DNA from: an uncultured Chloroflexia bacterium
GTDB taxonomy: Bacteria > Chloroflexota > Ktedonobacteria > Ktedonobacterales > Ktedonobacteraceae
Length of the DNA stretch: 64,000 bases
Assembly: GCA_963767715.1 (NCBI GenBank)
Contig: CAVYFA010000001.1
Location: 67,517-131,516 of the forward strand
Direction of reading: 5' to 3'
Part shown: positions 34,828-54,673 of the stretch, piece after piece
Numbering within the stretch: position 1 is the first letter of the stretch
Layout of the letters: every line of letters starts with the position of its first letter
The notes under the pieces: model-generated
What the model saw: only the letters and a program-made list of their open reading frames with translations
Database searches by the model: none
Told to the model about the DNA's origin: nothing
Program-made: the position numbers and the translations under genes

Positions 34828-35126
34828 GTTCGAACCCTTTCTACTGCAGAAACACGTTGTCTTTTCGGCTTATCAGATCAAGCTAGCAATTCGTTTTTCA
34901 GTGTAAAATGGTAGTGACGTTTGCGTTGTTTCGTGTAATAGCATTTACACAAGAGTAATAGAATGCTTGACACGAAATATTAATCAGAATATACTACCAA
35001 AGTATAAATAAATCAATTAAGGAATTGGGTTGAATTTGTTTTCGGATTAGTAGAAGGCGCTTTCTACAGAGGAAAAAGGCTTATGGAGCCCTATAACTTG
35101 TCGGCAAAAAGAGAGGAATAGTACTT

Positions 35127-35752
35127 ATGGAAGACCTCGAATCCCAGGATAGCCACGATTCACTATCTTTCGAACCTGCCAGTTCAGCAGTCGAAACCGC
35201 TGAGATGGAAGTTGCTAATTCATCCTCCATGGGGATATACCGGGATGTAATCGAGCAGGCGATTTTGCCACTACTTGTGGAATTGCGCGAACTTCGCCAG
35301 GACTTCGATACCAAGATCAAGTATGACGAGAGCAAAGAACGTCAGGTAGACAGCCTCCACAGAGAGTTGCAAAGCTACCGTGAGGGACTGCATTTTAAGA
35401 TTTACGCCCCCTCTTCATCGACCTCATCGCTGTGTATGATGATTTTGCTAAGCTCACAGAGAGTATGTCACTCCTTGAGTCGAATGATATCTCAAGTCAA
35501 ACCGTTGACAATCTGAGGTCATTCCAGGAAACGATTGAAGATATTTTAAATCGTAATGGGGTCGAGTCCTATAGCGTTGAAGGAGATAATTATATTCCCA
35601 ACCGGCAGCGCGTCTTGCAGGTCGTTGACACATTCGACCCTGCACAGGATAGGCTGGTTGCACGCCGAATACGTAAGGGTTTTGAGTATGAGGGCCGGGT
35701 GATACGTCCTGAAATCATCGCAACGTATAAAACTAGACAGGACAAAGAATAA
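35127..35752 (+). CDS. GrpE-like nucleotide exchange factor (frameshift at the CCCCC run ~35405)
   Basis: The C-terminal ORF 'FDPAQDRLVARRIRKGFEYEGRVIRPEIIATYK' matches the GrpE β-domain. N-terminal helical region is present. The frame break coincides with a 5-C homopolymer. Confidence 0.6.
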
Positions 35753-35808
35753 CCATTTCCTTTAACTAGAAAGTGATTCAGATAAAATTTAGATACTAGA
35801 GAGGAAGA

Positions 35809-37482
35809 ATGATAATGAGCAACGAGGAAACCGTAGTATTCGGGATCGACCTCGGTACAACCTATTCGTGTATCGCTTATGTTGATGAGTATGGCAAGCC
35901 GGAAGTCGTCACAAATGAAGAGGGTGAACGTACAACCCCCTCTGTCGTTTTGTTTGAAAGCGCTGATGAAAGGGTCGTGGGTAAGGTCGCCAAAGAAAGT
36001 GCGGTGCTCTACCCAACGAAAGTGATCCAGATGGTGAAACGACATATGGGTGAGGAGAACTGGGAGCTCGAGTGTGATGGATTGCATTTCACCGCCGAGG
36101 AAATATCTTCCTACATTCTGCGCAAGCTGGCAAAGGATACAGAAGCTCAACTCGGCCGCCCGGTCACAGACGTGGTGATTACTTGCCCTGCCTATTTTGG
36201 TATTGCTGAGCGCGAGGCTACCGCCAACGCCGGAGAAATAGCCGGGCTGAACGTGCGTGAGGTGATTAACGAGCCAACCGCAGCAGCTATTGTTTACGGC
36301 CTCCAGAATGAACAGGATCAGGTTGTACTTGTCTATGACTTGGGCGGTGGTACCTTTGATATCACGGTGATCGAGATTAAAGCTGGCACAATTACCGTTG
36401 TGGCTACGGGCGGTGACCACAATCTGGGAGGCAAAGATTGGGATGCCGTAATTGTGGAATATCTGGCGCAGCAATGGATGGATGAGGCTAGTTCCTCGGA
36501 CGATCCCACAAGTTCTGAGGAGACATTACAGGACCTGTGGTTACGCGCGGAATCAGCAAAGCGGACACTCTCCGCTAAACAGGAAACCAATGTTCCTGTC
36601 ACTCATGCAGGCCAGCGCAAGGGAATTGTATTAACACGCGACAAATTCAACGAACTGACTAACAATTTGCTCGAAAGAACTATAGATTTTACCAAATCAA
36701 CGATTGAGGCAGCGAAGAGTCGCGGCTACACGCAATTTGATCAAATTTTGCTGGTGGGTGGCTCGACTCGCATGCCTCAGGTACAGGAACGCTTGAAGGC
36801 AGAGTTTAGTATCCCACTCAAGATGCATGATCCTGATGAGTCGGTCGCGAAAGGCGCCGCGATCTACGCACAGAAACTGACGCTCGATCAGAAGATCCAG
36901 CATAAAATTGCTGAGCTAACAGGCACAAAGATTGATAATGTTGATCAATCCAAGGTCTCTGAGCAGGTGCTGGAGCGTGCGCAACAGGAAGTAGCTCGCG
37001 ATTTCAGGCTTAAAAATCGGCATGGTGAAAAAGTACGCCGAGATGGAAGTTACCAACGTGGCAAGCCACAGTTTCGGTATTATCGCGATAGATGCAAGGA
37101 CAAACTCGGAGGTCATCTCCAACATTGTGCTTGCCAACCAACCCGTCCCCGCTTTCCAGACGAAAACATTCCATACCCTTGAAGCGGGGCAGCGTGAAGC
37201 CGACTCAAAGTCATGGAGAACGGATACGAGACTGAGGTCGTCAACGACATCACTGCTGGTGAAGAGATTGGCAAAGCGTTGCTGTCATTGCCTTCTGGAT
37301 TGCCCATCAATACACCGGTCGAGGTCACGTTTGAGCTAAACCGAGAAGGGAGGCTCCAGGTGATCGGTCGAGAACCAAGAAGCAATGCAACTATCGAGGT
37401 TACTGTACAGACGAAGCGGGGAATGTCTGAAGAAGAGGTGGAGCAGGCGAAGACTCGTGCAAACCGTGTAGCCATTTCATAG
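35809..37482 (+). CDS. Divergent Hsp70/DnaK-family ATPase (#1), ~555 aa, two apparent frameshifts in the substrate-binding-like region (~37030-37210)
   Basis: NBD motifs 'VFGIDLGTTYSCIAY', 'DLGGGTFDITVIEI', 'GGSTRMPQVQERL', 'DPDESVAKGAAIYA'. The C-terminal β-rich segment continues in ORFs 37022-37339 and 37213-37482. Confidence 0.85.
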
Positions 37483-37567: not shown

Positions 37568-39645
37568 TTGAATAGTTTTGTCGGCATCGATCTCGGAACA
37601 ACTTACTCCGTGATTGCCTTCATCAATGCAAACGGCAAGCCAGAAATTATCCCTAACGAGTATGGACATGCGACGACTCCTTCAGTCGTCTACCTTGGTG
37701 GCGAGAAGCTGGTTGTCGGCGAAGATGCCAAAGAATTCCAGGCCATGGGGAAACAGGAGGTTGCCTCTTTTTTCAAGCGCAACATGGACGATATCTACTT
37801 TATGCTGTCGTTCAATGGAAGAACTACACTCCTGTAGACCTCTCAGCAGAAGTTCTTGCGTATATGAAAGCCCAGGCAGAGCGTCATTTGGGCAGTCCGG
37901 TAATCGATGCCGTGATTACTGTTCCTGCCTATTTCACACACGTGCAACGTTCCGCAACAATCAAAGCCGGGCGTAAGGCGGGCTTGAACGTCCTTAAGAT
38001 TATAAGCGAACCTACTGCCGCCGCACTGGCCTATGGGTTGCGCCCCAGCAACGAAAGACAGCGCGTGCTGGTTTACGACCTTGGTGGTGGCACCTTTGAC
38101 ATTTCGTTAGTTGAGATTACTCCCAACGAAATCAAAGTGCTGACCACTAATGGAGATCACAATCTGGGTGGCAAAGACTGGGATGATCGCTTAATAGAAT
38201 ACGTCGATAGCCTGTTCCGTGCGGAATTCAGCACGGACCTGATTGGGGACGACTTTAGCGAGTTGCGCATCCAGTCTGAAAGACTTAAGCAAACACTCTC
38301 TTCGCGCCAAAGCGGGGAGGTCCGCGTGCAGGCAGCAGGCAATGCCGGTACCTATTCAGTGACAAGGGAGAAGTTCGAGGAGCTTACGCTCGACTTAATG
38401 GAACGCACACAAATGCTGACAGAGCTTGTCTTGTCTGAAAAAGGCCTGACCTGGCAAGACCTCGATGGCGTTTTGCCCGTTGGCGGTTCGACCCGGATGC
38501 CAATGGTGCGTAACTATATCCAGCGTATGTCGGGGAAACCTCCCATGGCGGGCATCAATCCCGACGAAGCGGTTGCTCTGGGCGCTGCCATTCAAGCAGG
38601 CATGGAGATAGAGACGGGGCGAGATGCCAATCAGCCGATTTTTCGCCTAGCTGGGCGTAAATCCACCACAGACGTGATCGCTCACAGCCTGGGCATGATT
38701 GCAGTAAACGACGACCGTACGCGCTATATCAATAGTATTCTAATCGGAAAAGACCTGGAAATACCCTCAGCAAAAACACGACCTTACACAATGAACATCC
38801 GCCAACGGAGCGAGACGGAAATGGAGGTCTTTTTGACGCAGGGCGAGAGCGAAGACCCCCAGCAATGCGCCTATCTTGGCCGATATATCTTCTCAGATTT
38901 TCCGCCCATTGCCAGTAAAACAACGCCTGTGGATGTAACCTATGAGTACGATAAAAATGGTGTCGTGCACGTCTCCGCTGTCGAACGTTCAGCCGGTACG
39001 CCCTTGAAATTGCGTGTCGAGCCGGTTCCTCCTGATGTACCAGCGCGTTTTACCGGGTCGCCTAAAGATCAAGAAGTGCGCGAACATTTAACGGTATACC
39101 TGGCCTTCGACCTTTCTGGCAGTATGAGCGGTCGCCCACTTAAAGAAGCGAAGCGAGCCGCCGAGAAATTTGTCAGTCAGTGCGACTTGTCCTCTACCTC
39201 GCTAGGCTTGATCTCCTTCTCGGATAGCGTACAAGTTGACCAGAGCGCAACTCAAAATGGGAGAGAGATCATGCGGGCCATTGCCGGTCTCACCATCGGG
39301 CGAACCGGATATGGAAACCTCGGTCACCCCTTTAATGAATTATATAATCGCCTGATGCAGGCTCCAGGTATACGTTATGCAATCGTGTTGGCCGATGGTG
39401 TCTGGTCCCACCAGGACACCGCTATCAAGCACGCGAAACATTGCCATGAGGCTGGCATTGAAATAATCGCCATCGGCTTTGGAGGAGCCGATCGCGCATT
39501 CCTTGCGAAAATCGCATCGTCGTCCGAACAGAGTTTTTTCACAGACATGAGTCGGCTGGCAGAAACATTCAGCACCATCGCTCAGGAACTGACAGAGTCG
39601 GGAGGCGAAAAACGGCCCTTTGGAAAATTGGGCTGGAAGCCTTAA
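37568..39645 (+). CDS. Hsp70/DnaK-family ATPase (#2) fused to a C-terminal von Willebrand factor A (vWA) domain; one frameshift ~37815-37825 (aaa to aa)
   Basis: NBD 'FVGIDLGTTYSVIAF', 'DLGGGTFDISLVEI', 'GGSTRMPMVRNY', 'NPDEAVALGAAIQA'. C-terminal MIDAS 'VYLAFDLSGSMSG' plus 'IVLADGVW'. GGGAGGA RBS with a TTG start. Confidence 0.85.
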
Positions 39646-39681
39646 ACGAGAGTAGTTATAGAAGCGGAGATCTCGTAAAAA

Positions 39682-42600
39682 ATGGCTGGAGAGCAAACGA
39701 CCGCCAAACCTAACTTTTTCATTCTGCTCGGGTTCCATCCCGATGATCCCTGGGATCAGAAGAAGTTTGAGGAGACGCTGAAAGCGAAACGCGGTGAATG
39801 GTCGCGCAAAAGCAGCGGCGTAGGTAATGTGGAATGGAGGCCAGGAGAAATCTCGCGCTCTACGGTGAGATTAAGCAGTCATGGCCGACAAGACCAGGCG
39901 CGACGCCGAGGCAGAAGCAGCCAGAAAGGAACGGCTGGCGGGGCAAAGCGCGAAAATAGACCAGTTCGAGCGGCAGGTAGAAATGCTCGCCAGAAAAAGC
40001 TTTCTGGAACAAACCGAAGTTGACAGACTGGTTGCTGACTTTAAGGATGTTCTCACAGAACGAGAGATCAGAGCCGTATTAAAGTGCCGGTTAAAGCATC
40101 CGATCCCCAGGTCGGAAAAACGCAACAACAACTTGAGCCAGCGACTGTCAAGGCCATCAACCAGCGGCTCCAACCGCTCCAAAAGAAAGACCTCTATGAC
40201 TTGCTGGGGATGTCACCGAGCGTCTCAAGCGATCAACTTCTCAAGGCCGCACAAGCACTGGCCGAAGATATGCTGCGCCGCCAGCCAAAGACGCAGGAAG
40301 TCACCATGCAGGCGGAACTGGCGGGTCACGCAAAAACGATTTTCAAAACCCAGGAGATGCGCCAGAAGTACAACGAATCTTTGCGTTATAGCACTCTGAA
40401 TGCGCTTTTAGAGGAGTTTGAGCAAACCGTCGCCATTCAAAAGGGTCGCCTTTATGCCGGGCAGGTGGCCACGTTTCTGGAACAGGCAGCCCGCGCGCGC
40501 TGGTCAAAGGAAGAAGCGCGCGCCAAGTTGAACGAGTATGCCAAAAAGCGAAGTTGGTTGTCGAGGTGCCGACTATCGAGATCGGCAACGAGAAACAGCG
40601 CTGCGGTGACTGTGAAACGATGAACGACAAAGGGCGCGAATATTGTGTCAAGTGCAACGGTCAACTCCGTTTCACCTGCCCAGATTGCGGCAACGCTGTT
40701 AGCTCTGACGAAGTTGGATGCGGCAAATGTGGTTTTCCCGTTGGCAATCGCTACTGGGTCGATAGCCTTCTCACTGAATGCCAGACGCTGCTGACTCAGC
40801 ACGATCTGAAGGCTGCCAATGAGCAACTCATGCTGGCGGAAGAGGCCTGGACGCCAAAGAAACCCGATACCCGTCTCAAGCGGATCCAGGAGTATCGCGC
40901 CGAAATCCGCCGCCATGAGCAGGCTCAACAGCAGAATATTGAGCAACTGAAAGCATATATCAATAAGCACCAATTCTTCACCGCGCGCGATTACCTGGCA
41001 CAGCAGCCACCGGATGCCCTCCCCGATAAAGAGAGCTATCTGCAAATCATCACGGGCGAAATTACCCAGGCCCAGGCACTGCTTAAAAAGACCAGGACAA
41101 TCACCGATACTACTCAGAAGTTTGATCTGTGTGTTCAGGCGCTGCGCATCTGCACAGATTATCAAGAGGCGCGAGATGTCTTGAGCACTACCCCACCTTC
41201 CCCCCCCAAGAATCTCAGCGTAAAGGTTGGCGACTCCACAATCAGCTTACAGTGGAACCCCTCGCCGACACGCGACGTCAGCTACATAATTGTGCGTAAA
41301 ACGCGCTCGCGGCCGGTATCGGTGAAAGACGGGCAAATTCTCGCAAGGGTCGGCGGGCGCATGTACGATGACACACAACCGGAAATTGGCATATCGACCT
41401 TCTACTCCGTTTTTGCTGCCTTTGAAGATATTACTTCTATCGAGGCCGCCACACTGCAGCACCCCATTATGCTTACAGCAGAAGTGGAAGACATAAAAAA
41501 GCGTATTGACAATCGGCTGGTCGAGCTGACCTGGAAAGCTCCTCAAAATGTTCATACAATCATGGTTGTGCGCAAGGAGAAAATGGCTCCTGCTTCCGTC
41601 GAGGACGGGGTAAAGGTCGCGCCGCTAGACCTGCAGCACTTGGTTGATCGAACCGTGAAAAACGAGTGCCTCTACTTTTATAGCATTTTCTGTCAGTTCA
41701 AAGATCATGATGCACGCATTATCACAACGACAGGGATGACGGTAAACGCAACACCAGAAACGCCTCCTGAGATCATCCGGCGTTGGATATTTCGAGCCAG
41801 AAAGTTGTCAAGGGCTACGATGTAAAGCTGCGTTGGGCCACACCCCCCAAGGGTGAGGTCGTCATACTTAAATCAGCGCAGCCTCTTGCTGTGAGAGCCG
41901 GTGAAGCACTGGCGATACGCGAACTCACCCGCTTTGGAAATTTACTGAAAGAACATCCCGATTCCTGCACCGATCGAGAGGCACATCCAGGTGTCGCATA
42001 CTACACGCCGGTCGTTATTTTTCAGGGTACCGCCTATGTCGGTGCGGCGCAACGTCTTGCGTTGATAGACGACGTGAGCGATCTCAGATATCAAAATCTC
42101 GGCTCGGCCATACGTTTAAACTGGAACTGGCCCGCGAATTGCCAGGAGGCTATAGTCGCCTTCGACTATAATGGGTATCCGCAGTTAAACGGCAGAACGC
42201 CCAATGCGCACAAAGTGATGCGCGCAGAATATGAGCACAGAGGATTTTATGATATTCGCGGAAACATGGAGCGAGATCACTATATCGTCGTGGCGGCAGT
42301 AATCCGGCAGGGCAATGACGAGATAATTGGTCCTGGCGCACGGGTGCAGGCTCGCCTGATCAGCAAGATTGTTCTGAGCTATGAGATCAAGCTTCCACGC
42401 TTGTTCGGCCCAAAGAAGCGTATACTCAGCATCTCATCGCGTACGGCAGGCAAATTGCCCAACCTGCTACTGGTGAGCAAACAGGGCCGATTGCCCTTGC
42501 GCCGGGAGGAAGGTGAAGCCTATTTTCGCCTGCAGGGGCCAATCCCGATTGAGAGTACGCTGGAATTTGAATTGCCGGACAAGTCGTTCGGCCCTAAAAC

Positions 42601-42688
42601 GTTCGGCAAACTCTATCTTGAAGATGATGGACTGTATGAGATGGTGACGATTCACCATCCCAGCGAAGATAAGTTGAGGCTTTCATAA
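39682..42688 (+). CDS. Large multidomain protein (~1000 aa, 3-4 frameshifts): degenerate J-like N-terminal segments, a double zinc ribbon and four FN3-like β-sandwich repeats
   Basis: 'NFFILLGFHPDDPWDQKKFEETLKAKRGEW' and 'DLYDLLGMSPSVSSDQLLKAAQAL' look like J-domain helices but lack HPD. 'CGDCETMN...CVKCNG...CPDCGNAV...CGKCGFPV' is a double zinc ribbon. Repeats are marked by 'PPKNLSVKVGDSTISLQWNPS', 'LVELTWKAPQN', 'VKLRWATPPKG', 'IRLNWNWPAN'. Confidence 0.45.
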
Positions 42689-42692
42689 TGCA

Positions 42693-43861
42693 ATGTTAGG
42701 CCAAAAGATTATCTGCCCATTCTGCTTCGAATCATTTTCGGTCCAGGAAATACAATTTCGCTGCCTCAATCCCAGTTGCACTGGACGAGCGGTCGATCAG
42801 ATCTATGCCGAAGCGCGAAATGTCCCACCATTGCAGATGGGCCACGTAATCAGCGCAAAAAAGACCTCTTTCGGGGTGGCCCGTACGGTCGATTGTGATG
42901 TGTGCAAGAAGGAAGCGCGCACGCGCCTCTGTCCCAGGTGCCATTTTGAGCTTTCCCACGATGTAGGGCAGGTCGATCAAAAAATCATTGCGATTATCGG
43001 CGGCAGCAATACCGGTAAGAGCCACTACATCGCTTCGCTAATCACTCGTTTGCAGCATGTCGTTGGCGGGAACTTCAATTTCGCCGTCTCTATGCTCGGT
43101 GACGGCACAAGAGAACGCTGGCACAGGGATTTCTACACGCCCCTCTTTGAGAACAAGCGGGTGCTTCAGCCAACACAGCGCTCAACTGTCGATACCATTG
43201 TAAAGACCCCACTGATCTTCCGGCTGACATTCAAAGATGGCAACAACATACGAGCATTGAATATCAGCTTCTTCGATACTGCAGGTGAGGATATGTCCAA
43301 ACTACAGGTCGATGCCCTCTCAGTTGAAGCCCGTTATATCTGCAAAGCTGATGGGTTGATCGTTTTGCTCGACCCTCTCCAGATCGAAAGCGTTCGCCAA
43401 CAATTACCCAACATACAAAAGCCATAGCCAGACCCGATGGCACGCCCCGAATTTATCGTTGAGCGTCTACGCGAGCTGATGGAAGGCTATCATAATCTGT
43501 CCGGTTCGAAAAAAATTTCTATTCCGGTCGCTTTCACTTTCTCCAAAGTCGATACGCTCAGGAGCATTGTTGCTCCTGATTCGGCATTCTCCAGCACAGC
43601 ACGCACTATGGTGAGCTTGACCTCCCCGACGTACAATCGGTGAGTACCGAAATCGGTAACTACGTGCAAGCCTGGATTAATACCGGTTTCTACAATGAGA
43701 TCGATTATAAATTCGCCAACTATCGTTTCTTCGGCGTCTCTTCCCTGGGCAACCAACCTGATTCTTCTGGACAGGTCAAGGTCGAGCCGCTGCGCGTTGA
43801 GGACCCTTTCCTGTGGATACTGCATCAGTTTAAGATGGTCAAAGGGAAGAAAGGGAGGTAA
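42693..43861 (+). CDS. Double-zinc-ribbon-fused P-loop GTPase (~390 aa; frameshifts at ~43430 and ~43640)
   Basis: N-terminal 'CPFCFE...CLNPSCTG...CDVCKKE...CPRCHFE'. G1 'IIGGSNTGKSH', G3 'FFDTAGED', G4 'FTFSKVD', G5-like 'GVSSLG'. The C-terminal 'VEDPFLWIL' is shared with the 47122 paralogue. It starts 4 nt after the previous stop. Confidence 0.65.
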
Positions 43862-43863
43862 TT

Positions 43864-46800
43864 ATGGCGGTTTTCCAGCATTATTACACATCATACGTCA
43901 ATAGGGAGACAGGAAGCGCGGGATTTCAGGTCAAAGCGATGTCGCCCGGAATCGCCGCCGATACGCAATCGACCATTACACGCCTGATATCATATCGTAT
44001 TCCTTCCAGGCTTGACGAGTACGCTATCTCTACACATCCCGTGGCTTTGCGTTACTACTATCGAAATCCGCAAGAAGCGATTTTACTGTGCAGTCAATCC
44101 AATGGGACTGACGAAAATGGGCGTCCCGGCAATTTTTTTGCGCATAGCCTGGTAGTCGAGCCCGACTTTTTCGCCAGTATGCCGCCTATTTTATACTGGC
44201 GCAGCCCTTTCTGGCGTACAAAGGACCCAGGATCAAGCGCGGTGATAGAGCCGATAGAAAGCCTGGAAGAGATCGCAACAGCGCTTGATATCGAGGGGGT
44301 ATGGCATTTCCTCGCTCAAGGAAAACGCATCGAACAATTCCATAAGCTCATGAGCGCCGTCGTGCATTGCAACAGTACACAACGCCGCATTGTGATTATT
44401 GACAACGCAGATAACGTTGCGCAGTGGATCGCGGCGATCACGATCATGTTGCCGCCCGACTACCGGCCATTACTCAGTTTTGCCACCTATCATCATGATC
44501 CCTACCAGTCGCAATTTATGGTGACGGGCACGACCAGCGATTCTTCGTTCCGCGCTTCGCCTGAAGAGTATATGAGCTACTTCATACTGAACACACAGAA
44601 CGGCAAGATCAGTGATGTCGAAGCTTCGCCTTACGCCGATGAAGCTGTCAGAGCTGCTCGCTCTTATGAAATCTACGAGTCGAAACTGCTCTCTCTTATC
44701 ACAGATACCGTGCCGCGTTTCCAGCGTCCAACCCGCATTGATGAGCAACTCGATTCAATGGCGTTGTATGCAGGGATGCTCGAGCCAAACCACGCGTTCT
44801 CTTTAAACAGAGAAGAACTGGAAGCAATAAGTGTAGTCCTGACAACATTTGAACAGATGCGCGTTTTTACGCAAGAAGACCTGGACGAAGTGCGACAGAT
44901 AAGCTATCTGCTCCAGGAAACATCTTGGTCCCAGAGTGCTGAGGATATCGATGTCGAAAGCCGGCGTGTGGTCACTCTGCTCAGAAAACATAAAGCGCCA
45001 ACAGAACAGTCAGCGCTACGTGAGATAAAGTATATCACACAGCACCTTATCAACGATGTAGATATATCGTCATCACTCCAACGCCTGGAAAACATGCGCC
45101 AGATTTACGGCGAAGATCTATTGATCGATATTGTCAACAGTACTAACTACCTACAATGGCTGAACAAGCTTGCCGAAACAATCAATGCAGCACAACTGTC
45201 ACAAATCTGGAAATACCTGGCTGTTTATCTCAATCCAGGCCCCCACAGCCAACCTTTTACGATAGCCAGTTTAACAATCGTGGGGATACTCTGGAGTGAC
45301 AAACAGGCCCAGAAAGACGTAAGAAGGGCGATCGAGGCTATGGTACAGGCAATGGCTGGACAGGAAGCTGCCTGGCTGGAACTAATTGCGGCAAACTACA
45401 ATGTGCTGCCAGACGGGATACTCCTTCGTTACTACTGCTGGATGATGGTTGGCCGATTCCCTCTTGACAACCGCCTACCCTATCGAGAGATTGTGCAGCG
45501 TGTGATTCCCCACATCATTAAAAATGAGCTTGTCCACGAAATCTCTAAAGCCGGTGAAGCCAATAGTCTTGCGATACTGGAGGAATGGGTTGATCATGCC
45601 AGAAAGAATCACTTGGTATCGCTCACAGATTTGCTGATCGAAGGTATTAAACGTATCTTGAGGAATACCCCAGATGGAAAAGCGCCAGAGATGGCAGCGA
45701 AAATTTTAGTGAATGAAAGGTTGGCGCCACTGCCAACGGAATTGGAGAATGATCTTGTTTCTACAGCCATATCACAGGTTTCACTGAGCCATTACTCGCC
45801 CTTAGTGCTGGAGTTATGTAAGAAGTACAGAAACCGGCATGGCCTCTCATCCGATATTCGCGCCGTCATGGATGGGCTGATAGCCATGTCAAGCGGAGAG
45901 TTGGATGAGGAACTCGCGAAGCGCCTGCAAGACAGATTTGCTAGCATGCGACCAGAAGCGTACGAGGCGGATACAAAGAGCTTTGTAACTCGATTTCTCC
46001 AGGTTTGTACCACGGGTCGCTCTCATCAGCTCATGATAAATACCTTCTTCGATTGGGATTACCCTAAGACATTTTGGCAAGTCTACTGGCGTGCATTCAC
46101 GGGATTGCTAACCTATCCAGATACCTCAAGAGTGGATCAGGCGATGAAACTCTTGTCGTTCTGGTTCAGTGCTAGACCGGATGACTTTGAAAGCGCGTAT
46201 CTCTTACACAACTTTCTCATGGATTTACCTCAAAAACTTGAAGAGGTGCAGGAGACCCGCGGCTTCCAAGAGGCAGCACGATATATCAATTCTAGGGCCG
46301 AATCAGAGCGATGGTATCCTCTGGTGCAGGATTACTTTTCGGGTCGAACTAGTGCTTTGCAGACAGTAGGGCGAACCCTGGCTACGCATATCCAGAAACT
46401 CAGAGCAGAAGATAGTGAAAAGGCCGCCCGACAGGCAGAAAAAGAGCAGAGAGAACGCGCAGCCCTTGATGAGCGCATCTCAGCGATGTTTGATAAGAGG
46501 AAATCGAGCCAGTATCATCTTCGGATAGTTGGCGATGTCTATGAATGGCAACAGCGTGAGCTTTTCTGGTCAATTTATTGGAGCCATTTCAAATCTTTGT
46601 TCACCTCTGAGAATAATGCGCAGTGCATTCTTGATCTCTTCCACTTCTGGTTTGACGACTCGTTCTCAGTTCTGCCACAGAAAGGATATATTCCCCGGCA
46701 GTTCTTCCTCAAATTGCACGATGCTTTGATGGAGGCGCAGAAAGAGCGAGGTTTCCGTGAGCTCGCTCGCAACATCTTTAGAATAGGAAAGCAACAGGTG

Positions 46801-46878
46801 CAAGTCTACCCATGGTTTGTATTGATACAACCCTACCTTGAGGAACAGGAAAAGCGGTTTGGTATCTTCAGGCGATAA
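43864..46878 (+). CDS. Large (1004 aa) predominantly α-helical protein of unknown function; candidate GTPase-associated component
   Basis: GGAGG RBS. Uninterrupted ORF. N-terminal α/β-like region 'MAVFQHYYTSYVNRETGSAGFQVKAMSPGI' followed by ~800 aa of helical repeats. It lies between the two DZR-GTPase genes. Confidence 0.55.
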   Translation: MAVFQHYYTSYVNRETGSAGFQVKAMSPGIAADTQSTITRLISYRIPSRLDEYAISTHPVALRYYYRNPQEAILLCSQSNGTDENGRPGNFFAHSLVVEPDFFASMPPILYWRSPFWRTKDPGSSAVIEPIESLEEIATALDIEGVWHFLAQGKRIEQFHKLMSAVVHCNSTQRRIVIIDNADNVAQWIAAITIMLPPDYRPLLSFATYHHDPYQSQFMVTGTTSDSSFRASPEEYMSYFILNTQNGKISDVEASPYADEAVRAARSYEIYESKLLSLITDTVPRFQRPTRIDEQLDSMALYAGMLEPNHAFSLNREELEAISVVLTTFEQMRVFTQEDLDEVRQISYLLQETSWSQSAEDIDVESRRVVTLLRKHKAPTEQSALREIKYITQHLINDVDISSSLQRLENMRQIYGEDLLIDIVNSTNYLQWLNKLAETINAAQLSQIWKYLAVYLNPGPHSQPFTIASLTIVGILWSDKQAQKDVRRAIEAMVQAMAGQEAAWLELIAANYNVLPDGILLRYYCWMMVGRFPLDNRLPYREIVQRVIPHIIKNELVHEISKAGEANSLAILEEWVDHARKNHLVSLTDLLIEGIKRILRNTPDGKAPEMAAKILVNERLAPLPTELENDLVSTAISQVSLSHYSPLVLELCKKYRNRHGLSSDIRAVMDGLIAMSSGELDEELAKRLQDRFASMRPEAYEADTKSFVTRFLQVCTTGRSHQLMINTFFDWDYPKTFWQVYWRAFTGLLTYPDTSRVDQAMKLLSFWFSARPDDFESAYLLHNFLMDLPQKLEEVQETRGFQEAARYINSRAESERWYPLVQDYFSGRTSALQTVGRTLATHIQKLRAEDSEKAARQAEKEQRERAALDERISAMFDKRKSSQYHLRIVGDVYEWQQRELFWSIYWSHFKSLFTSENNAQCILDLFHFWFDDSFSVLPQKGYIPRQFFLKLHDALMEAQKERGFRELARNIFRIGKQQVQVYPWFVLIQPYLEEQEKRFGIFRR

Positions 46879-46906
46879 AAGTGTCGCAGAAAGGAAAGAG
46901 TTTACA

Positions 46907-47104
46907 ATGGACGATGGGTGCGTAGCAATCCTTGGCTTTATCGTGATTGCTGCTATTGCGATTGCTCTGATCGTGTATGTGGTTTTACCACTAAGTTTGT
47001 TCTTACTTGGTAGCGTTGTTGCCGCTGGAACGGTCTCTGGAGTAGGGGTAGCAGGGAAAAACTTTTACGAATTACTCGTAGAAGCTCACAAAACCATAAA
47101 GTAA
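46907..47104 (+). CDS. Small (65 aa) two-TM membrane protein
   Basis: AGGAAAGAG RBS. 'CVAILGFIVIAAIAIALIVYVVLPLSLFLLGSVVAAGTVSGVGVAG'. Confidence 0.4.
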   Translation: MDDGCVAILGFIVIAAIAIALIVYVVLPLSLFLLGSVVAAGTVSGVGVAGKNFYELLVEAHKTIK

Positions 47105-47121
47105 GTAGAAAGGGATGCCAT

Positions 47122-48654
47122 ATGGCTATTTTCGAACCCCAACCCGCATTTAAGATATACGCGTTTGAACGGGGCTGGCGCATAATGAAATATGTCACAG
47201 AGAACCTCTTCAAGCGCACCGATGTTGCTGCTCGCTGGTGGTTTACAAAGGCGGAAGATGCTAAGACGCGCAGTACAACTCAGGGAGCATTTGTAAAGTA
47301 CTGGATGTATGTATATATGGCAGGGCTGTATCTGGCTGGTGGTGCGCAGTACGTTTCCGCCATGATACTGGCTGCTCTATTTCTGCTAGTACAGTCAATC
47401 CTCCTCTCGCTCTGGGTTGTGTTCTCTATCATTACCATAGGCATCCTTTGGCTCTGTACATTTGCCTACTCGCGCCTCTATCGCATATTCTACCGCTGCC
47501 CTGACTGTCACAAGGAAATGAGCATCCCCACCTTCATTTGCCCGAACTGTAGCGAGAAGCATTCGCAATTGTGGCCCAGTATCTACGGCATCGTCTCACA
47601 TTGTTGCATCAAGTGCAATACCAGGCTCCCCACATTGCGCATAGATATTCCGGGGATGAAACTCAAGAAACGCGATAGCCTCGTTCGCATTTGCCCAAAT
47701 TGCTCCAGTCAGATCAACGCAGCCATTGGAACGGGGACAAATATTCATTTCCCAGTTGTAGGAGGACCTTCCACAGGTAAATCAAACTTCATCGTCATGG
47801 CCACGAAAGAATTTATCCAAACCTATGGCGATGAGCATCACTACTCGATCTCCTTCACTGATAGTAGGCACGAGCTAGATTTCAATGAGAATGTCAGGCG
47901 ACTCTCGACCGGACACGCGCTAGTCGCGACGACGGAGGTTGTGGCTCGGGCCTATAACCTGAAGATCCAATCTCCGAAAGCGCATGTGCCGAAGATTGCC
48001 TACATATACGATGCCGCAGGTGAGGCATACAACACCAGTGAGAACACCTCACAGCAAGAATATTACAAGTATATCGATGGGATAATCTTCGTGATTGATC
48101 CTTTCTCTATTCCGACTTACCGCAGCCAGCATGTCCAGGCAATTGAACACTATCAGAATCTGATCCGCCCAAGTTCGCTGGATGTAATGCAGGCATACGA
48201 GCGCATGTTCAATATGTTTGAAGATTTTGCAGGCTTGCGCAAGGGACGTCGCTTTACTCATCCGATCGCGGTCGTGGTGACAAAAGTCGATGCGCTCAAC
48301 CTGGAATTTGAGATTGGATCAATTGCCGCTCAGCAGACAATGAGTACCACTCCTTCTCTAGCATCTGAGGGCGATGCAATTAATTTGCTGGTACGCAACT
48401 TCCTGTGCCAGAACGACCTTGATCACTTCGTCCGCGATATCGAAATGCAATTCTCTAATGTGCGCTACTTCTCCTGTTCTGCACTTGGACGTATGCCGGT
48501 GCAAGAGGATAACCGCAGCTTCATGCCCGTGCGCGTCAGTGACCCGTTTATCTGGCTACTAGCACGCACTAAAGCTATCGACGCCATACCGAATACCGGA
48601 AGGGTAACGCGCGTCCTCGGCCCACAAGTCATGACTATGCGACAAGAGAACTAA
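47122..48654 (+). CDS. Membrane-anchored double-zinc-ribbon GTPase (paralogue of the 42693 gene), 510 aa, intact
   Basis: TM helices 'YLAGGAQYVSAMILAALFLLVQSILLSLWVVFSIITIGILWL'. 'CPDCHKE...CPNCSEKH...CCIKCNT...CPNCSSQ'. G1 'VVGGPSTGKSN', G3 'IYDAAGEA', G4 'VVTKVDA', G5 'CSALG'. C-terminal 'VSDPFIWLL'. Confidence 0.7.
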   Translation: MAIFEPQPAFKIYAFERGWRIMKYVTENLFKRTDVAARWWFTKAEDAKTRSTTQGAFVKYWMYVYMAGLYLAGGAQYVSAMILAALFLLVQSILLSLWVVFSIITIGILWLCTFAYSRLYRIFYRCPDCHKEMSIPTFICPNCSEKHSQLWPSIYGIVSHCCIKCNTRLPTLRIDIPGMKLKKRDSLVRICPNCSSQINAAIGTGTNIHFPVVGGPSTGKSNFIVMATKEFIQTYGDEHHYSISFTDSRHELDFNENVRRLSTGHALVATTEVVARAYNLKIQSPKAHVPKIAYIYDAAGEAYNTSENTSQQEYYKYIDGIIFVIDPFSIPTYRSQHVQAIEHYQNLIRPSSLDVMQAYERMFNMFEDFAGLRKGRRFTHPIAVVVTKVDALNLEFEIGSIAAQQTMSTTPSLASEGDAINLLVRNFLCQNDLDHFVRDIEMQFSNVRYFSCSALGRMPVQEDNRSFMPVRVSDPFIWLLARTKAIDAIPNTGRVTRVLGPQVMTMRQEN

Positions 48655-48663
48655 AGGCCGTTT

Positions 48664-48882
48664 GTGTTAATGAAGAAAGGAGAGAAGAGAGTGATGAGTG
48701 AACGCGATGCAATGAAGGCAACAGACAATTCAGGAGTACGATACAAGCAAAACGATGGAGCTAACCGCTCTGGAGCTAGACGCCGCGAGGGACTGGCTAA
48801 GGAGACAGATGCGTTCGAGGCGCGCAGGAAGAGCGCTGAAAATCTGAAGAAACGCAGCCGCCACGAAACCTTTAGGCAGTAA
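48664..48882 (+). CDS. Small highly charged hypothetical protein (72 aa)
   Basis: Composition resembles the 49137-49391 segment (R/E/K/A/N-rich). AGGAGAGAAG precedes the start. Weak call. Confidence 0.25.
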   Translation: MLMKKGEKRVMSERDAMKATDNSGVRYKQNDGANRSGARRREGLAKETDAFEARRKSAENLKKRSRHETFRQ

Positions 48883-49136
48883 GAGCGGGAAAAATATCTG
48901 ATCCAGCGAACGGGAAGTTTTCTTGCATTATAAAGAGGGCACAACTCAAGTGATGCAAGGCAACAACTAGCAGCACGAGGTCGACACCAGGCAATTAGAG
49001 AGGAGCGTGTGCAGAAGCCGGAGCGAGTATGAGAGGAACTGCTCAAGGGCAAGCAAAAGGGGAGAGGTTTATTTCGTTCCAACCGGAGCAAAGTTAGAGC
49101 TTGTGTTCAGTTGATAGGGATTGAGAGAAATGATGA

Positions 49137-49903
49137 TTGATTATGCATAATCGTGAAGGGGCAGAATTTACCGAGAGGCAATCTCAAAGTAAGGATAATG
49201 CATTTGAAAGACGTCACGCAGGCTTCAGGTCTAGTAGAGATGCAGGAGCTCAAAGTGACGCATATAACGCTAATGAGCGAGTTAAAACGGCATCAAGCAG
49301 ACTGGAAGATGGTAATCGGCATCGGGTTTTTAGATCGGAGGAGACTTCTACCAAAGCCCAGCAAGATAAAGTCATGAGTATTCTGACCTGAGTGGCCAGG
49401 AAACAGAGAGAAGACAATTTTCTACAATTGAAGGACGCACTGTTCGGTTATCCCAGGAGGAAATCAAAGCGGTCAAATCGGCACTGGCTACTGAGCAAAG
49501 TATAGACAAAAACCGGTTTCCGCCTGAAAAGACGGCTGCGGCTGTTGAAGGTGGACCCTGCACCCTTAGTGGATGGGAACATGGGAAAGAGGATTTTGTA
49601 CAGGCAATGGAAGATGTGAGAATACGCTCTCAGCAAATTGGGCACGAGCTGAGGCCCCACAAGCTATTCGATAGAGGAGTTCCTGGACGATTCAATGCAT
49701 CTCATGCAGAGAAGCAGATATCAGTCGTTGCTCCTGATAAACCAATTGCTGTCTCAAAGCCAATGTGCTCAGATTGCCAATCATATTTTCGAGCCACCGC
49801 ACGATACACAGAGAAATCGCAAGTCGTTGCTGATTCTCGTGTAGTGAGGATTTTTTATCCTGATGGTAGAGTTGTAGAGTTACCAAAAAGTACATTTGCA
49901 TAA
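49137..49903 (+). CDS. Candidate toxin: charged N-terminal region joined (frameshift ~49388) to a C-terminal deaminase-fold-like domain (HAE...PMCxxC)
   Basis: 'GRFNASHAEKQISVVAPDKPIAVSKPMCSDCQSYF' has the zinc-ligand spacing (H-x-E, then ~24 aa, then PC-xx-C) of the nucleic-acid/nucleotide deaminase superfamily. The reading frame is open from 49388 without an ATG and continues the 49137 ORF after a 1-nt shift. Confidence 0.35.
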
Positions 49904-49916
49904 TAGGAGCAAAATA

Positions 49917-50582: not shown

Positions 50583-50605
50583 GCTGACTGATAGGAGAAC
50601 CGACA

Positions 50606-51534: not shown

Positions 51535-51580
51535 CTGCGGGGAAAAAATTGAAACACTGGAACATGCTTCTTTAGACAGC

Positions 51581-54500
51581 ATGACACCCCACAAATTCGC
51601 CCTGGCCGACGTGTTTGATGAGCATGAGCATACCTTCTACTCGATTCAGGGACTGGCAAACTTCTGGAACAATAATCCAGATGTCGATTTTGGGCAGCGT
51701 ATTACAGACCTTGTGATCGGGGCGCACAACCAGCTTCAATCAGATCTGGTGTTAGTGATAGCCGGTACTGCTCAAAAATTGTCAGTGTATATTTCCTTAG
51801 GAAACCCGGCAACGACACTGAGTATGCTCGAGGGTATTCTTCCTGGTATCCATATCGAACCGGCTCCTGTAAAAAATCTGGCTCGCTATTTATATCCGCA
51901 TTTTCAGGTACAGGGCATCATCACGGGCATACCCAGTCATAAAGCGGCGAAGGAAGGCTCCCCGGCTGTCCCCGTTGAGCGCTGATGCTGGTTCTTCCGG
52001 CCTGTCTACTACAAGCCTGAGCAGCGCTCCCACCACAGGTTAATCGCAGTTGGAACGCGTTGTGCGTGGCATGTATAGAGCAAACTGGGTCTACGTTGTC
52101 AAAGCTCATCCACGTTCCCGGTATGCGGTAGCTCAGGACAGGCTGGAGATGCTTGACCTGCTGGCGCGTGTCGCGTCTCAATCGCGTATTCAAATGCAGG
52201 TCACGGAACAAGGTACTAAACAGGAAACGGAAGTCAATTACAGGTGGCATACAGAAGCGTTGAGCAGTGAAAAGGTGAATTACCGCGCACAGTATCTTAT
52301 GCGACTACTGGAACGAGAGCTGGAACGACTCAACCAATCAGCAGCCTCGGGACAATGGATCGTGCAGACCTACTTCGGGGCCAGCACTCCCGGTGATGCG
52401 CAAAGGCTGGCTTCGCTGCTCGTAGGAGCGCTGGCCGGTAAGGATTCGCGCCCAAATCCTCTCCGTGCCTTCACCTGCCGTGATGGAGGGACGCCGCTGT
52501 CCAACTTTACAACGTATCTCTCCTCAGATGAGGTGGCAACCCTTATCCAACTTCCGCGCGAAGAAGTGCCCGGTTATGCCATCTCCGACTTTGTGCGCTT
52601 TGATGTTGATTTTCGCTTCTCGAACCATACTGCGCGGGTCCGCCTCTTTCCCTCGGGCATATTCAACATAATGGACAGGATGCTGAACCCTACCAGATCG
52701 ATCTTGATGACCTTGCCAAACACGGAGTCGTGGTGGGTGTAACCGGCAGCGGGAAGACCACCACGGTGATGAATTTGCTGGATTCTCGTGGTCTGAAAGG
52801 AAGCCATTTCTAGTGATCGAACCTGCTAAAACCGAATATCGCGCTTTACGCAGTTCGCTTCTGGAAAAGCAGACGTGCGCATCTATACGCTTGGCAATGA
52901 GAACATCGCACCGTTTCGCCTCAACCCATTTGAATTTGAGACAGATGATACTCCTGGCAGCGCCTCGGTTGTGAACCATATCGACTTCTTGAAGGCTGTC
53001 TTCAATGCGGCCTTTATTCTCTATGCTCCAATGCCCTATGTCCTGGAAATAGCCTTGCACGAAATCTACGAAGACAAAGGCTGGGACTTAGCTACCGGCA
53101 TGAATACGCGCCTGCCCAAATGGTCCGAGCATGATCTCCACCCGATTTTTCCCACACTGACGGATCTGTACTGTAAGGTGGAAGCAGTCGTCGATCGACT
53201 CAGGTATGATACCCAGACCGAGCAGATGGTCAAAGCGGGGCTGAAAGCCCGTATTGGCTCGATGCGCATGGGTGCAAAGGGCTAGATGCTGGATACAGCG
53301 CGGGGTATACCCATGCAGCAATTGCTCTTCATCCCACCATCCTGGAAATGGAAAATATCGGCGGTGACGATGAAAAGACCTTTCTCATGGGTATACTGCT
53401 CACAAAACTCTACGAATTTCGACGCCTGCAAGCGGCCTCCGGTTTAACGCCCGGCAATTGCAACACTTAATCGTCTTTGAAGAGGCTCATCGCCTCTTAA
53501 AGAATACCGAGACACAGGTGGATACAGATCATCTAATATGCGTGCGCAGGCTATTGAAGTTTTTACCAACATGCTCTCGGAGGTGCGCGCCTATGGACAA
53601 GGCGTGCTGGTAGCGGAACAGATACCCGCTAAGCTGGCTCCCGACGTACTGAAAAATACCAATCTCAAAATCGCCCATCGTCTCGTCGCGCAGGATGATC
53701 GGCAAAGCGTCGGCTACAGAATGAATCTCAACACGGAACAAATGAACCACCTGGGTATCCTTTCGCCGGGCATGGCCGTCGTGTATGCTGAAGGGGCGGA
53801 TCATGCCTATAAGGTACGCCTGGATAATTACAAGAGCGCCTTACCAACCCTGACCGATGTGCAGTTAAAAACCTCCAGCGTGAGCTATGCCTCGGTAAAA
53901 GACTACCAGCTTATCCTTGATCTTCATCGCTATAATATTCATCGTTCCGAGTTCGGCGGCCCGGATGCTCTTCTCTGCCAGCATGCTGCCCGGCTGTTAG
54001 CCACCGAAAAAGGCCGTGGCTTCTCTCGCACCTGCTATTGCGTACCGTCTTTAGCCGATCACAGGTGTCCCAGGCCATCCAGATGTTGGAGCAATATATC
54101 GAGCTGGTGATTCCTTCGCTGCAAACCAGCCCCCATATGCAGGAAGCAACGTTAAAAATGATGCTCGTTCGAGGCGGCGCCGAAGTTTTGCACAGACATG
54201 GGGCATTGTTCGGCTGGACATACCCTCTCGTCGAAGAGTTGCGCGTTCCGCTGACACAAGGCTTGCTGACATTTATTCAGAAAAGAGACCTTGCACTTGT
54301 CAGTAGCGATCTTGATCGCTTTGCGCGTCGCTACGAAAAGCTTTTAGAGCGAAACCAGGGACCATTTGCAGGTTGTGAACATTGTCGCACAAAATGTCTG
54401 TATCGTTTAGAGACCCGCGTCCTCCTCTTGCCACCAGACAAGGAGTGGATTGATGGGGAACTCCAGACAAATCATCCCACGCCGGCAGATACCTATGCTG

Positions 54501-54673
54501 CTATAGCCAGGGCGGCTCAAACTATCGTCAGCAACTGGCTTGGCGAGTCAAAGAATGCTGCTCTCCCGGACCTGGCCTATTGCGCCGCCCTTCATGTAGA
54601 GTCAGAGACAGGATTGACCGAGTATGAACAGAGGAAGTTCGGAGAATCGCTCAGCACGGAATTGCTCACCTAG
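51581..54673 (+). CDS. HerA/FtsK-superfamily (DUF87-like) ATPase, ~1000 aa, fragmented by several frameshifts
   Basis: Walker A in an alternate frame at ~52700-52760 'IDLDDLAKHGVVVGVTGSGKTTTVMNLL'. 'VIFEEAHRLL' (53465-53500). 'EVRAYGQGVLVAEQIPAKLAPDVLKNTNLKIAHRLVAQDDRQSV' matches the HerA-type 'EGRKyGvgl..SQRPs.l...vlsqcnt.ialrl' block. The ~210-aa C-terminal helical domain is intact. Confidence 0.55.

What the first reader, a model, noticed from the sequence alone, without database searches (positions are those of the whole stretch)
42693..48654. Two paralogous GTPases with N-terminal double zinc ribbons, one membrane-anchored, bracketing a 1004-aa partner
Both carry G1, G3, G4 (TKVD/SKVD) and G5 motifs plus a shared C-terminal 'V(S/E)DPF(I/L)W(I/L)L'. 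Both follow four Cys pairs. The second has three or four TM helices ahead of the ribbons. Paralogue pairs plus a giant helical protein suggest a sensor/switch/effector organisation, not a translation or ribosome-assembly GTPase.
Basis: partly seen in the sequence, partly recalled or inferred. Interest (0 to 1): 0.75.

Follow-up and report, generated by a model that had tools for sequence, protein, structure and literature searches.

The report
Known double-GTPase/GAP1 conflict operon, partly broken
The two zinc-ribbon GTPases and the 1004-residue protein between them belong to the already described, never experimentally tested "double-GTPase / GAP1-N2" system with Hsp70 partners, and in this sequence the first GTPase gene is interrupted by a stop codon and a frameshift.

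Summary
Three details are wrong or were missed. GTPase-1 (42693-43861) is not an open gene: it has an in-frame TAG at 43425-43427 and a 1-nt deletion near 43585. The membrane GTPase has one hydrophobic stretch, enough for about two TM helices rather than three or four. A conserved 65-aa two-TM gene (46907-47104) lies between the big protein and GTPase-2.

Pfam places both GTPases in DO-GTPase2. It places the 1004-aa protein in GAP1-N2 + GAP1-M. This is the "GAP1-N2 GTPase-centric system, HSP70/GrpE theme" of Kaur et al. (eLife 2020), a purely computational prediction.

Five further independent loci keep the core GrpE, Hsp70, Hsp70-vWA, zinc-ribbon/FN3 protein, GTPase, GAP1. Four of them also keep the membrane GTPase.

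Fold searches put the G domain nearest Rag, Rab, Arf, MglA and YcjX, not Era/Obg/EngA and not septin or dynamin. The GAP1 N-terminal module looks longin+DENN-like, which the 2020 paper does not mention.

The window's operon carries at least 19 frame-breaking indels, but none in GAP1, the 65-aa gene or GTPase-2. Whether this is decay or assembly error is unresolved.

Verdict: a new member of a known, uncharacterised kind.

The parts
34967..34995 (+). Promoter-like site (TTGACA-17-TATACT, 11 of 12) upstream of GrpE; a possible operon promoter.
   Evidence: It is the best match in the region, but the total number of matches is not above the shuffled expectation, so this is inference only.
35127..35752 (+). 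GrpE-like nucleotide-exchange factor, frame broken near 35401.
   Evidence: tblastn to the L001 GrpE gives two frames. A 1-nt deletion is seen.
35815..37482 (+). Hsp70 of the 555-aa type, with a +1/-1 indel pair at about 37002 and 37203 that creates stops.
   Evidence: Pfam HSP70 9.2e-109. 79% aa identity to L001. Indels.
37568..39645 (+). Hsp70 fused to a C-terminal vWA domain (690-aa type), frameshift near 37820.
   Evidence: Pfam HSP70 8.5e-96 and VWA 3.5e-19. Two frames; indel.
39682..42688 (+). Protein of the 1003-aa type with a helical, J-like N-terminal region, a double zinc ribbon and FN3-like repeats; broken by five 1-nt deletions.
   Evidence: Pfam DZR 1.6e-05 and a weak fn3 match. 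Colinear with the 1003-aa L001 gene in three frames. Indels at 39833, 39873, 40068, 40560 and 41780. The only DnaJ signal is a sub-threshold match in L007, E 0.085.
42693..43861 (+). Soluble DO-GTPase with two N-terminal zinc ribbons (390-aa type). It is interrupted by TAG at 43425-43427 and a 1-nt deletion near 43585.
   Evidence: Pfam DO-GTPase2 2.5e-12, 47.4 bits against a cut-off of 27. Lesions. 92% aa identity to the L001 orthologue with dN/dS 0.037. Motif coordinates.
43864..46878 (+). GAP1 (GTPase-associated protein 1), intact, 1004 aa. The N2 domain is 43873-44256, the M domain is 44326-44586, and the helical solenoid is 44629-46839.
46907..47104 (+). 65-aa protein with two predicted TM helices; a split-off N-terminal membrane module of the membrane GTPase.
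   Evidence: 85% identical to the L001 65-aa gene; dN/dS 0.034. Fused in frame to the 593-aa GTPase of L006: 37% identity, E 1.5e-12, and the concatenated sequences align colinearly. Hydrophobicity.
47122..48654 (+). Membrane-anchored DO-GTPase, intact, 510 aa. The conserved N-terminal helix is 47122-47286, the hydrophobic stretch 47287-47472, the two zinc ribbons 47497-47703, and the G domain 47737-48567.
51545..54667 (+). Remnants of a HerA/FtsK-like (DUF87) ATPase of the 1055-aa type, with many frame breaks. It is a variable downstream component of the operon in L001 and L003.
   Evidence: tblastn in several frames. Indels. Pfam DUF87 on the L001 orthologue.

Best explanation
**What it is.** The region is the core of a GAP1-N2-type double-GTPase system of the HSP70/GrpE theme, carried on a lower-GC island of a Ktedonobacteria-like (Chloroflexota) genome.

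**Shown here.**
- Two anciently diverged DO-GTPase paralogues, one soluble and one membrane-anchored. Each has two zinc ribbons and a full G1-G5 set with the family's DxxGE Walker B.
- They bracket GAP1 and a 65-aa two-TM protein in a tightly packed operon.
- The operon also encodes GrpE, Hsp70, Hsp70-vWA and a zinc-ribbon/FN3 protein.

**Inferred mechanism.**
- The two GTPases pair at the membrane as a nucleotide-dependent switch.
- GAP1 holds them through its N-terminal longin+DENN-like module. It would act as a platform that controls nucleotide exchange or hydrolysis, in the way DENN, folliculin and MglB-type partners do for Rab, Rag and MglA.
- The long helical solenoid of GAP1 docks the FN3 protein, which is the candidate sensor.
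- The solenoid also docks the Hsp70/GrpE/vWA machinery, which remodels or assembles the output.
- The output components are variable: a HerA-like ATPase and a CHAT protease in relatives.
- Following Kaur et al., the likely biological role is a thresholded response to an invader such as a phage.

**State in this window.** The soluble GTPase and most accessory genes are frame-broken. As written, only GAP1, the 65-aa protein and the membrane GTPase can be made.
For: **Family assignment.** Both GTPases score above the DO-GTPase2 gathering cut-off, and GAP1 hits both N2 and M. The published description matches point by point: two N-terminal zinc ribbons, a second TM-bearing GTPase, an FNIII protein, HSP70 plus GrpE, and a second Hsp70.

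**Conserved operon.** Five further independent loci (L001/L002, L003/L004, L005, L006, L007) keep the core GrpE, Hsp70, Hsp70-vWA, DZR/FN3, GTPase, GAP1, at GAP1 identities from about 68% down to about 32%. Four of them also keep the membrane GTPase, with the 65-aa gene separate or fused; L005 lacks both.

**Co-residence.** This indicates they sit on the same contig.

**Paralogy.**

**Selection.** dN/dS is 0.03-0.12 for all four core genes.

**Fold evidence.**
- N2 has the longin strand/helix order, two strands, a helix, three strands, then helices (compared with Levine et al.).

**Membrane module.** The 65-aa protein is fused to the GTPase in L006.
Against: - No experiment exists for any member of this family. 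Only the 2020 paper uses these terms.
- PADLOC has no model that matches.
- Sequence profiles find no DENN, longin or solved relative.
- The J domain expected on the FN3 protein is not confirmed.
- The C-terminal TM helix described for the second GTPase is absent here.
- Heterodimerisation of the two GTPases and their binding to GAP1 are inferred only.
- In this window GTPase-1 is not translatable as written.
Confidence: 0.6

Rival explanations
1. In this genome the locus is a dead remnant. The operon is decaying, and the two GTPases plus GAP1 no longer work as a system.
For: - There are at least 19 frame-breaking indels plus one nonsense codon in 11.7 kb of operon genes (GrpE, both Hsp70s, the FN3 protein, GTPase-1, the DUF87 ATPase).
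- The 14 kb flank, compared with an 86-94% identical relative, has only one such break. That is more than a 20-fold enrichment.
- The variable genes after GTPase-2 are replaced by a toxin fragment and an immunity gene.
- The neighbouring NACHT gene is also in pieces.
Against: - 16 of the 19 lesions are single-base deletions, one is a single-base insertion, and there is only one nonsense codon. That spectrum fits long-read assembly error better than neutral decay.
- GTPase-1 has dN/dS 0.037 and 92% aa identity to its orthologue, so any inactivation is very recent.
- GAP1, the 65-aa gene and GTPase-2 (4.75 kb) carry no lesion at all. The chance of that is about 0.002 if lesions fell at random (my calculation).
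- The related assembly L008 also has split genes.
Confidence: 0.45
2. The system is not a conflict system. It would be a housekeeping module of filamentous, multicellular Chloroflexota, for example membrane-protein quality control, cell-envelope remodelling or development, driven by Hsp70 and gated by the GTPases.
For: - Gene order is strongly conserved and dN/dS is low.
- The components are chaperones (Hsp70, GrpE, vWA), not nucleases or toxins.
- GAP1-N2 systems associate with multicellular bacteria (Table 1 of PMC7159879).
Against: - The locus sits on a lower-GC island. No GAP1 at 90% identity or more was found in the databases (best 68%), although the flank has an 86-94% identical relative.
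- Two systems occur on one contig in L007.
- The neighbours are NACHT, CHAT, a deaminase toxin fragment and Imm5.
- The downstream genes vary between loci.
Confidence: 0.2
3. The GTPases are dynamin-, septin- or GIMAP-like membrane-remodelling enzymes.
For: One copy is membrane-anchored, and paired paralogues recall bacterial dynamin-like pairs. No tool result supports it.
Confidence: 0.04
4. The GTPases are housekeeping ribosome-assembly or translation GTPases (Era, Obg, EngA).
For: A weak MMR_HSR1 match over the P-loop only: 20.9 bits against a cut-off of 21.9.
Confidence: 0.01

Closest known systems
GAP1-N2-type GTPase-centric conflict system, HSP70/GrpE theme (Kaur, Burroughs, Iyer and Aravind, eLife 2020; Pfam PF19993 DO-GTPase2, PF20013 GAP1-N2, PF20014 GAP1-M)
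   Same: - DO-GTPase with a DxxGE Walker B and two N-terminal zinc ribbons.
- A second, TM-bearing paralogue.
- GAP1 directly downstream of a GTPase gene.
- An FNIII-type protein.
- HSP70, GrpE and a second Hsp70.
- Occurrence in Chloroflexi.

   Different: - The paper says this theme is mainly in actinobacteria and firmicutes. These loci are Ktedonobacteria/Chloroflexota.
- The second Hsp70 is fused to vWA.
- The second GTPase has no C-terminal TM helix. Two of its 'four N-terminal TM helices' are on a separate 65-aa gene.
- Downstream are a DUF87/HerA-like ATPase and a CHAT protease.
- The J domain is not confirmed.
- In this window, most genes are frame-broken.
Rag/Gtr, MglA, Arf/Rab-type small GTPases with longin, roadblock or DENN partners (FLCN-FNIP with RagC; DENND1 with Rab35; MglB with MglA)
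   Same: - The G-domain fold is nearest to these GTPases.
- The GTPases are paired paralogues, as RagA/C are.
- The complex would be anchored to a membrane through a separate small protein, as Ragulator anchors the Rags.
   Different: - There is no detectable sequence similarity.
- Walker B has Glu where Ras-like proteins have Gln.
- The zinc ribbons and the TM stretch have no counterpart.
- The Rags dimerise through C-terminal roadblock domains, which are absent here.
- Homology is not established.
YcjX (bacterial stress GTPase, PDB 6nz4), encoded next to the membrane protein YcjF
   Different: YcjX has no zinc ribbons and no GAP1 partner. The Pfam families are different.
MoxR-vWA ternary conflict systems (same 2020 paper)
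   Same: The logic is the same: an NTPase switch, a constant third component and variable effectors. vWA and CHAT-type components are shared.
   Different: The switch there is an AAA+ MoxR ATPase. Here it is a pair of TRAFAC GTPases with GAP1.

Membership tests
DO-GTPase / GAP1-N2 system (Kaur et al. 2020) | GTPase of the DO-GTPase family (TRAFAC class) with a conserved Glu in Walker B. | tested here: met
   PF19993 scores 47.4 and 43.3 bits against a cut-off of 27. The motifs are DTAGE and DAAGE, and E301 and E201 are invariant in the two families.
DO-GTPase / GAP1-N2 system (Kaur et al. 2020) | GAP1 with GAP1-N2 and GAP1-M domains, encoded directly downstream of a DO-GTPase gene. | tested here: met
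   PF20013 scores 83.9 bits and PF20014 56.8 bits, both against a cut-off of 24. The GAP1 start is 2 nt after the GTPase-1 stop. The order is the same in five other loci.
DO-GTPase / GAP1-N2 system (Kaur et al. 2020) | Two N-terminal zinc ribbons on the GTPase. | tested here: met
   Each protein has four Cys pairs, invariant or nearly so in homologues. Pfam DZR and zinc-ribbon matches are weak.
DO-GTPase / GAP1-N2 system (Kaur et al. 2020) | When two GTPases are present, one has four N-terminal TM helices and one C-terminal TM helix. | tested here: inconclusive
   The N-terminal hydrophobic stretch of GTPase-2 could hold about two helices. Two more are on the separate 65-aa gene, which is fused to the GTPase in L006. 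No C-terminal hydrophobic segment exists in the 510-aa protein. No dedicated TM predictor was available.
DO-GTPase / GAP1-N2 system (Kaur et al. 2020) | A protein with FNIII repeats in the operon. | tested here: inconclusive
   Fragments of the 1003-aa-type gene give a DZR match and only weak fn3 or Fn3_SaeA matches.
DO-GTPase / GAP1-N2 system, HSP70 theme | HSP70 and GrpE genes, often a second Hsp70, and a DnaJ or TPR domain on the FNIII protein. | tested here: inconclusive
   GrpE, Hsp70 and Hsp70-vWA are present here and in all relatives. The only DnaJ signal is a sub-threshold match in L007, E 0.085.
Era/Obg/EngA-type housekeeping GTPases | Membership of MMR_HSR1-type families, with KH, Obg or tandem-G architecture. 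| tested here: not met
Dynamin / septin / GIMAP GTPases | A G domain of that clade, with stalk or helical dimerisation domains. | tested here: not met
DENN-module GTPase regulators (longin/uDENN + cDENN) | An N-terminal longin fold (two strands, a helix, three strands, two helices) followed by an alpha/beta DENN core. | tested here: inconclusive
DENN-module GTPase regulators (longin/uDENN + cDENN) | Direct binding to a small GTPase, with GEF or GAP activity. | not testable with these tools
   This needs biochemistry or a multimer structure prediction.

The most novel reading that the evidence does not exclude
The GAP1 N-terminal module (N2 + M) is a true bacterial homologue of the eukaryotic longin+DENN module, working on Rag/Arf/MglA-like GTPases. 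If so, DENN/folliculin-type GTPase regulation existed in bacterial conflict systems, in more than 2000 GAP1-N2 protein clusters (50% identity). These operons would then be a tractable model for how such platforms gate a GTPase pair at a membrane.
Probability: 0.25. Interest if true: 0.65.

Novelty: new member of a known kind. Interest (0 to 1): 0.33.

Why it matters
The system was predicted in 2020 to be a regulated, GTP-gated immune-like apparatus of multicellular bacteria, but nobody has tested it.

This locus and its intact relatives (L001, L003) give a compact, conserved version: eight core genes plus variable output genes.

Three observations here add to the published description:
- The 65-aa membrane protein is a detachable part of the membrane GTPase.
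- The G domain is closest in fold to Rag, Rab, Arf and MglA.
- GAP1 starts with a longin+DENN-like module.

These observations make a concrete hypothesis testable: GAP1 acts as an exchange or hydrolysis platform for a GTPase heterodimer.

For this particular window the practical message is caution. GTPase-1 and most partner genes are frame-broken in the sequence as given.

Tried and rejected
- **Genome-collection scan.** A scan with the single GAP1 protein found no relative. Relatives were then reached through the protein database and contig look-ups.
- **Source contig.** The window's own contig could not be retrieved.
- **PADLOC.** No defence-system model matches any of seven operon proteins.
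- **Sequence profiles against PDB chains.** The membrane GTPase, full GAP1 and GAP1 residues 1-255 found nothing meaningful.
- **Relaxed Pfam scan.** Eighteen GAP1 N-termini gave no DENN or longin signal.
- **Foldseek.** Full-length GAP1 gave only generic solenoid matches, TM-score about 0.14.
- **DnaJ domain.** Not confirmed on the FN3 protein.
- **Literature.** Searches found no experimental work on DO-GTPase or GAP1. My recollection that T6SS TagF is described as DENN-like was not confirmed in the papers searched, so it is not used.
- **Programmed recoding in GTPase-1.** Rejected, because orthologues have a sense codon and an intact frame at both sites.
- **Uniform sequencing error as the cause of the frame breaks.** Rejected, because the flank has more than 20-fold fewer breaks.
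- **GC3 frame-plot survey for frameshifts in the flanks.** Too noisy to use.
Full report
**1. What is in the sequence**

The 1004-aa ORF (43864-46878) and the 510-aa ORF (47122-48654) are intact. It falls into three ORF pieces: 42693-43427, 43437-43643 and 43640-43861.

DNA alignment with two orthologues shows why. An in-frame TAG sits at 43425-43427, where the orthologues have TTA/TTG (Leu). One base is missing near 43585. Repairing both gives a 389-aa protein of the same length class as about 980 database homologues of roughly 390 aa.

| Feature | GTPase-1 (repaired) | GTPase-2 |
|---|---|---|
| Cys pairs | C8/C11, C24/C29, C68/C71, C80/C83 | C126/C129, C140/C143, C162/C165, C191/C194 |
| G1 | GGSNTGKS | GGPSTGKS |
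| G3 | DTAGE | DAAGE |
| G4 | SKVD | TKVD |
| G5 | VSSLG | CSALG |
| C-terminal motif | VEDPFLWIL | VSDPFIWLL |

These residues are invariant or nearly so across 33 and 44 homologues.

The two proteins are genuine but old paralogues. The pairwise comparison gives 24% identity, E 2e-24. The family profiles give probability 99.9%, E 1.7e-36.

**2. Corrections to the description**

- GTPase-2 has one hydrophobic stretch (residues about 56/71-117) after a conserved, positively charged N-terminal helix. AlphaFold models it as a single long helix. It can hold about two TM helices. I could not run a dedicated topology predictor.
- A 65-aa ORF (46907-47104) with two predicted TM helices lies between GAP1 and GTPase-2.
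  - It is 85% identical to the orthologous gene in L001, with dN/dS 0.034.
  - In locus L006 it is fused in frame to the N-terminus of a 593-aa membrane GTPase: 37% identity, E 1.5e-12.
  - The 65-aa protein joined to GTPase-2 aligns colinearly with that 593-aa protein at 44% identity.
  - It is therefore a real, detachable membrane module. It accounts for the 'four N-terminal TM helices' in the published description.
- The 1004-aa protein is not purely helical. Residues 1-245 form an alpha/beta module and residues 256-992 a helical solenoid.

**3. Identity**

Pfam places both GTPases in DO-GTPase2 (PF19993; 47.4 and 43.3 bits, cut-off 27). It places the big protein in GAP1-N2 (PF20013, 1.4e-23) plus GAP1-M (PF20014, 2.9e-15).

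These families come from Kaur, Burroughs, Iyer and Aravind (eLife 2020, PMC7159879). [quoted passage not shown]
- a GTPase with two N-terminal zinc ribbons;
- a second GTPase with TM helices;
- an FNIII-repeat protein;
- in 14% of neighbourhoods, HSP70, GrpE and often a second Hsp70.

The upstream genes in the window match this: GrpE, Hsp70, Hsp70-vWA and a zinc-ribbon/FN3-like protein.

The paper is computational. Two literature searches found no experimental follow-up, and PADLOC has no matching model.

**4. Conservation and co-occurrence**

GAP1 has 172 homologues at E 1e-5 or better in the word-indexed search. A profile of its N-terminal module finds 2149 clusters at 50% identity. Source names point to Ktedonobacteraceae, Ktedonobacterales and other Chloroflexota.

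Five further independent loci were read.

| Locus | Gene order after the common core (GrpE, Hsp70, Hsp70-vWA, DZR/FN3 protein of about 1000 aa, GTPase of about 390 aa, GAP1) |
|---|---|
| L001/L002 | 65-aa gene, membrane GTPase, then a DUF87/HerA-like ATPase |
| L003/L004 | 65-aa gene, membrane GTPase, then a DUF87/HerA-like ATPase and a CHAT protease |
| L005 | second GTPase replaced by kinases |
| L006 | the 65-aa module is fused to the membrane GTPase |
| L007 | 67-aa gene, membrane GTPase; a second GAP1/GTPase pair on the same contig |

That indicates they sit on the same contig.

The core genes are under purifying selection against L001.

| Gene | dN/dS against L001 |
|---|---|
| GTPase-1 | 0.037 |
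| 65-aa gene | 0.034 |
| GTPase-2 | 0.055 |
| GAP1 | 0.119 |

**5. Fold evidence**

*GAP1.* The model has pLDDT 88.2.
- Foldseek sees only generic solenoids.
- The N2 domain has the order strand-strand-helix-strand-strand-strand-helices. That is the longin topology as given by Levine et al. 2013. The M domain is a small alpha/beta sandwich.
- The 2020 paper does not mention longin, DENN or roadblock.
- This resemblance is a model-based inference. There is no sequence support, and I could not inspect the residue alignment.

**6. Most likely mechanism**

*Shown:* the components, their order, their conservation, intact nucleotide-binding motifs, and the membrane module.

*Inferred:*
- The soluble and membrane-anchored paralogues pair at the membrane as a GTP-dependent switch.
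- GAP1 engages them through its longin+DENN-like head, as a platform controlling exchange or hydrolysis.
- The GAP1 solenoid scaffolds the FN3 protein (the sensor, per Kaur et al.) and the Hsp70/GrpE/vWA machinery.
- Variable downstream genes (HerA-like ATPase, CHAT protease) deliver the output.

A conflict (anti-invader) role is favoured for these reasons:
- the locus sits on a lower-GC island;
- no GAP1 at 90% identity or more exists in the databases, although the flank has an 86-94% identical relative;
- systems can be duplicated on one contig;
- the neighbours are NACHT, CHAT and a toxin/immunity pair.

A developmental or proteostasis role is not excluded.

**7. State of the locus in this window**

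Compared with L001, the operon genes other than GAP1, the 65-aa gene and GTPase-2 carry at least 19 frame-breaking indels. Sixteen are single-base deletions and one is a single-base insertion. There is also one nonsense codon.

The 4.75-kb block of GAP1, the 65-aa gene and GTPase-2 carries none. If lesions fell at random the chance of that is about 0.002 (my calculation, made after seeing the data).

The flank 1-14.2 kb, aligned to an 86-94% identical contig (L008), shows one clear frame break in the window. It is a +1 at 3461 that splits an SbcC-like gene whose relative, in the same 90%-identity cluster, is 1038 aa.

The breaks are therefore more than 20-fold enriched in the island, so uniform sequencing error does not explain them. 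The two remaining explanations compare as follows.
- *For real decay:* the enrichment itself, and the replaced downstream genes.
- *For local assembly error:*
  - the lesions are dominated by single-base deletions;
  - there is only one nonsense codon;
  - GTPase-1 has a very low dN/dS;
  - the related assembly L008 also has split genes.

I cannot decide between real decay and local assembly error. Either way, as written, GTPase-1 cannot be translated.

**8. Verdict**

This is a new member of a known, experimentally untested kind. The additions made here are the split membrane module, the Rag/Rab/MglA-like fold and the DENN-like GAP1 head.

Noticed in passing
window 49607-50582: An orphan toxin/immunity pair sits inside the operon, where relatives have 162-aa and 258-aa genes. 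It consists of an SsdA_C/OTT_1508-like deaminase fragment (49607-49903, PF24120 7.8e-13, HAE...PMCSDC motif), overlapped by 8 nt (ATGCATAA) by an Imm5 immunity gene (49896-50582, PF14423 3.7e-36).
   Followed up: partly
window 35127-54667: At least 19 frame-breaking indels (16 single-base deletions, one single-base insertion) and one nonsense codon are concentrated in the island genes. There are none in the central 4.75 kb (GAP1, the 65-aa gene, GTPase-2), and only one in the 14-kb flank. The cause is unresolved: decay or local assembly error.
   Followed up: partly
window 1098-5500: An SbcC/Rad50-like ATPase is split into 1098-3512 and 3346-4242 by a +1 insertion at about 3461. Its relative in the same 90%-identity cluster is an intact 1038 aa. 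A NurA nuclease gene follows at 4208-5500.
   Followed up: partly
window 32823-34411, minus strand: NACHT/NPHP3_N NTPase in at least two ORF pieces on the opposite strand, just upstream of the operon. A NACHT gene occupies the same position in L003.
   Followed up: no
window 5507-8100, minus strand: Two genes have unusually low third-position GC (0.36-0.45) in a region of about 57% GC. The first corresponds to a RelA/SpoT-like (HD_4, RelA_SpoT, TGS) gene in the syntenic relative L008.
   Followed up: no
window 50606-51327: A small zinc-ribbon ORF (50606-50893) overlaps a proline-rich ORF (50764-51327). The latter keeps 33% similarity to the 258-aa gene of L001 and is probably another remnant.
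   Followed up: no
L007 17844-22098, minus strand: A second GAP1-N2 and DO-GTPase pair lies on the same contig as the full Hsp70-type operon. These systems can therefore be multi-copy in one genome.
   Followed up: no
L008 4798-6037 and 21753-22984: The closely related assembly also has split genes (amidohydrolase 280+143 aa; sigma-70 339+89 aa, where the window's gene at 12883-14115 is intact). This suggests a background of indel errors in these assemblies.
   Followed up: partly
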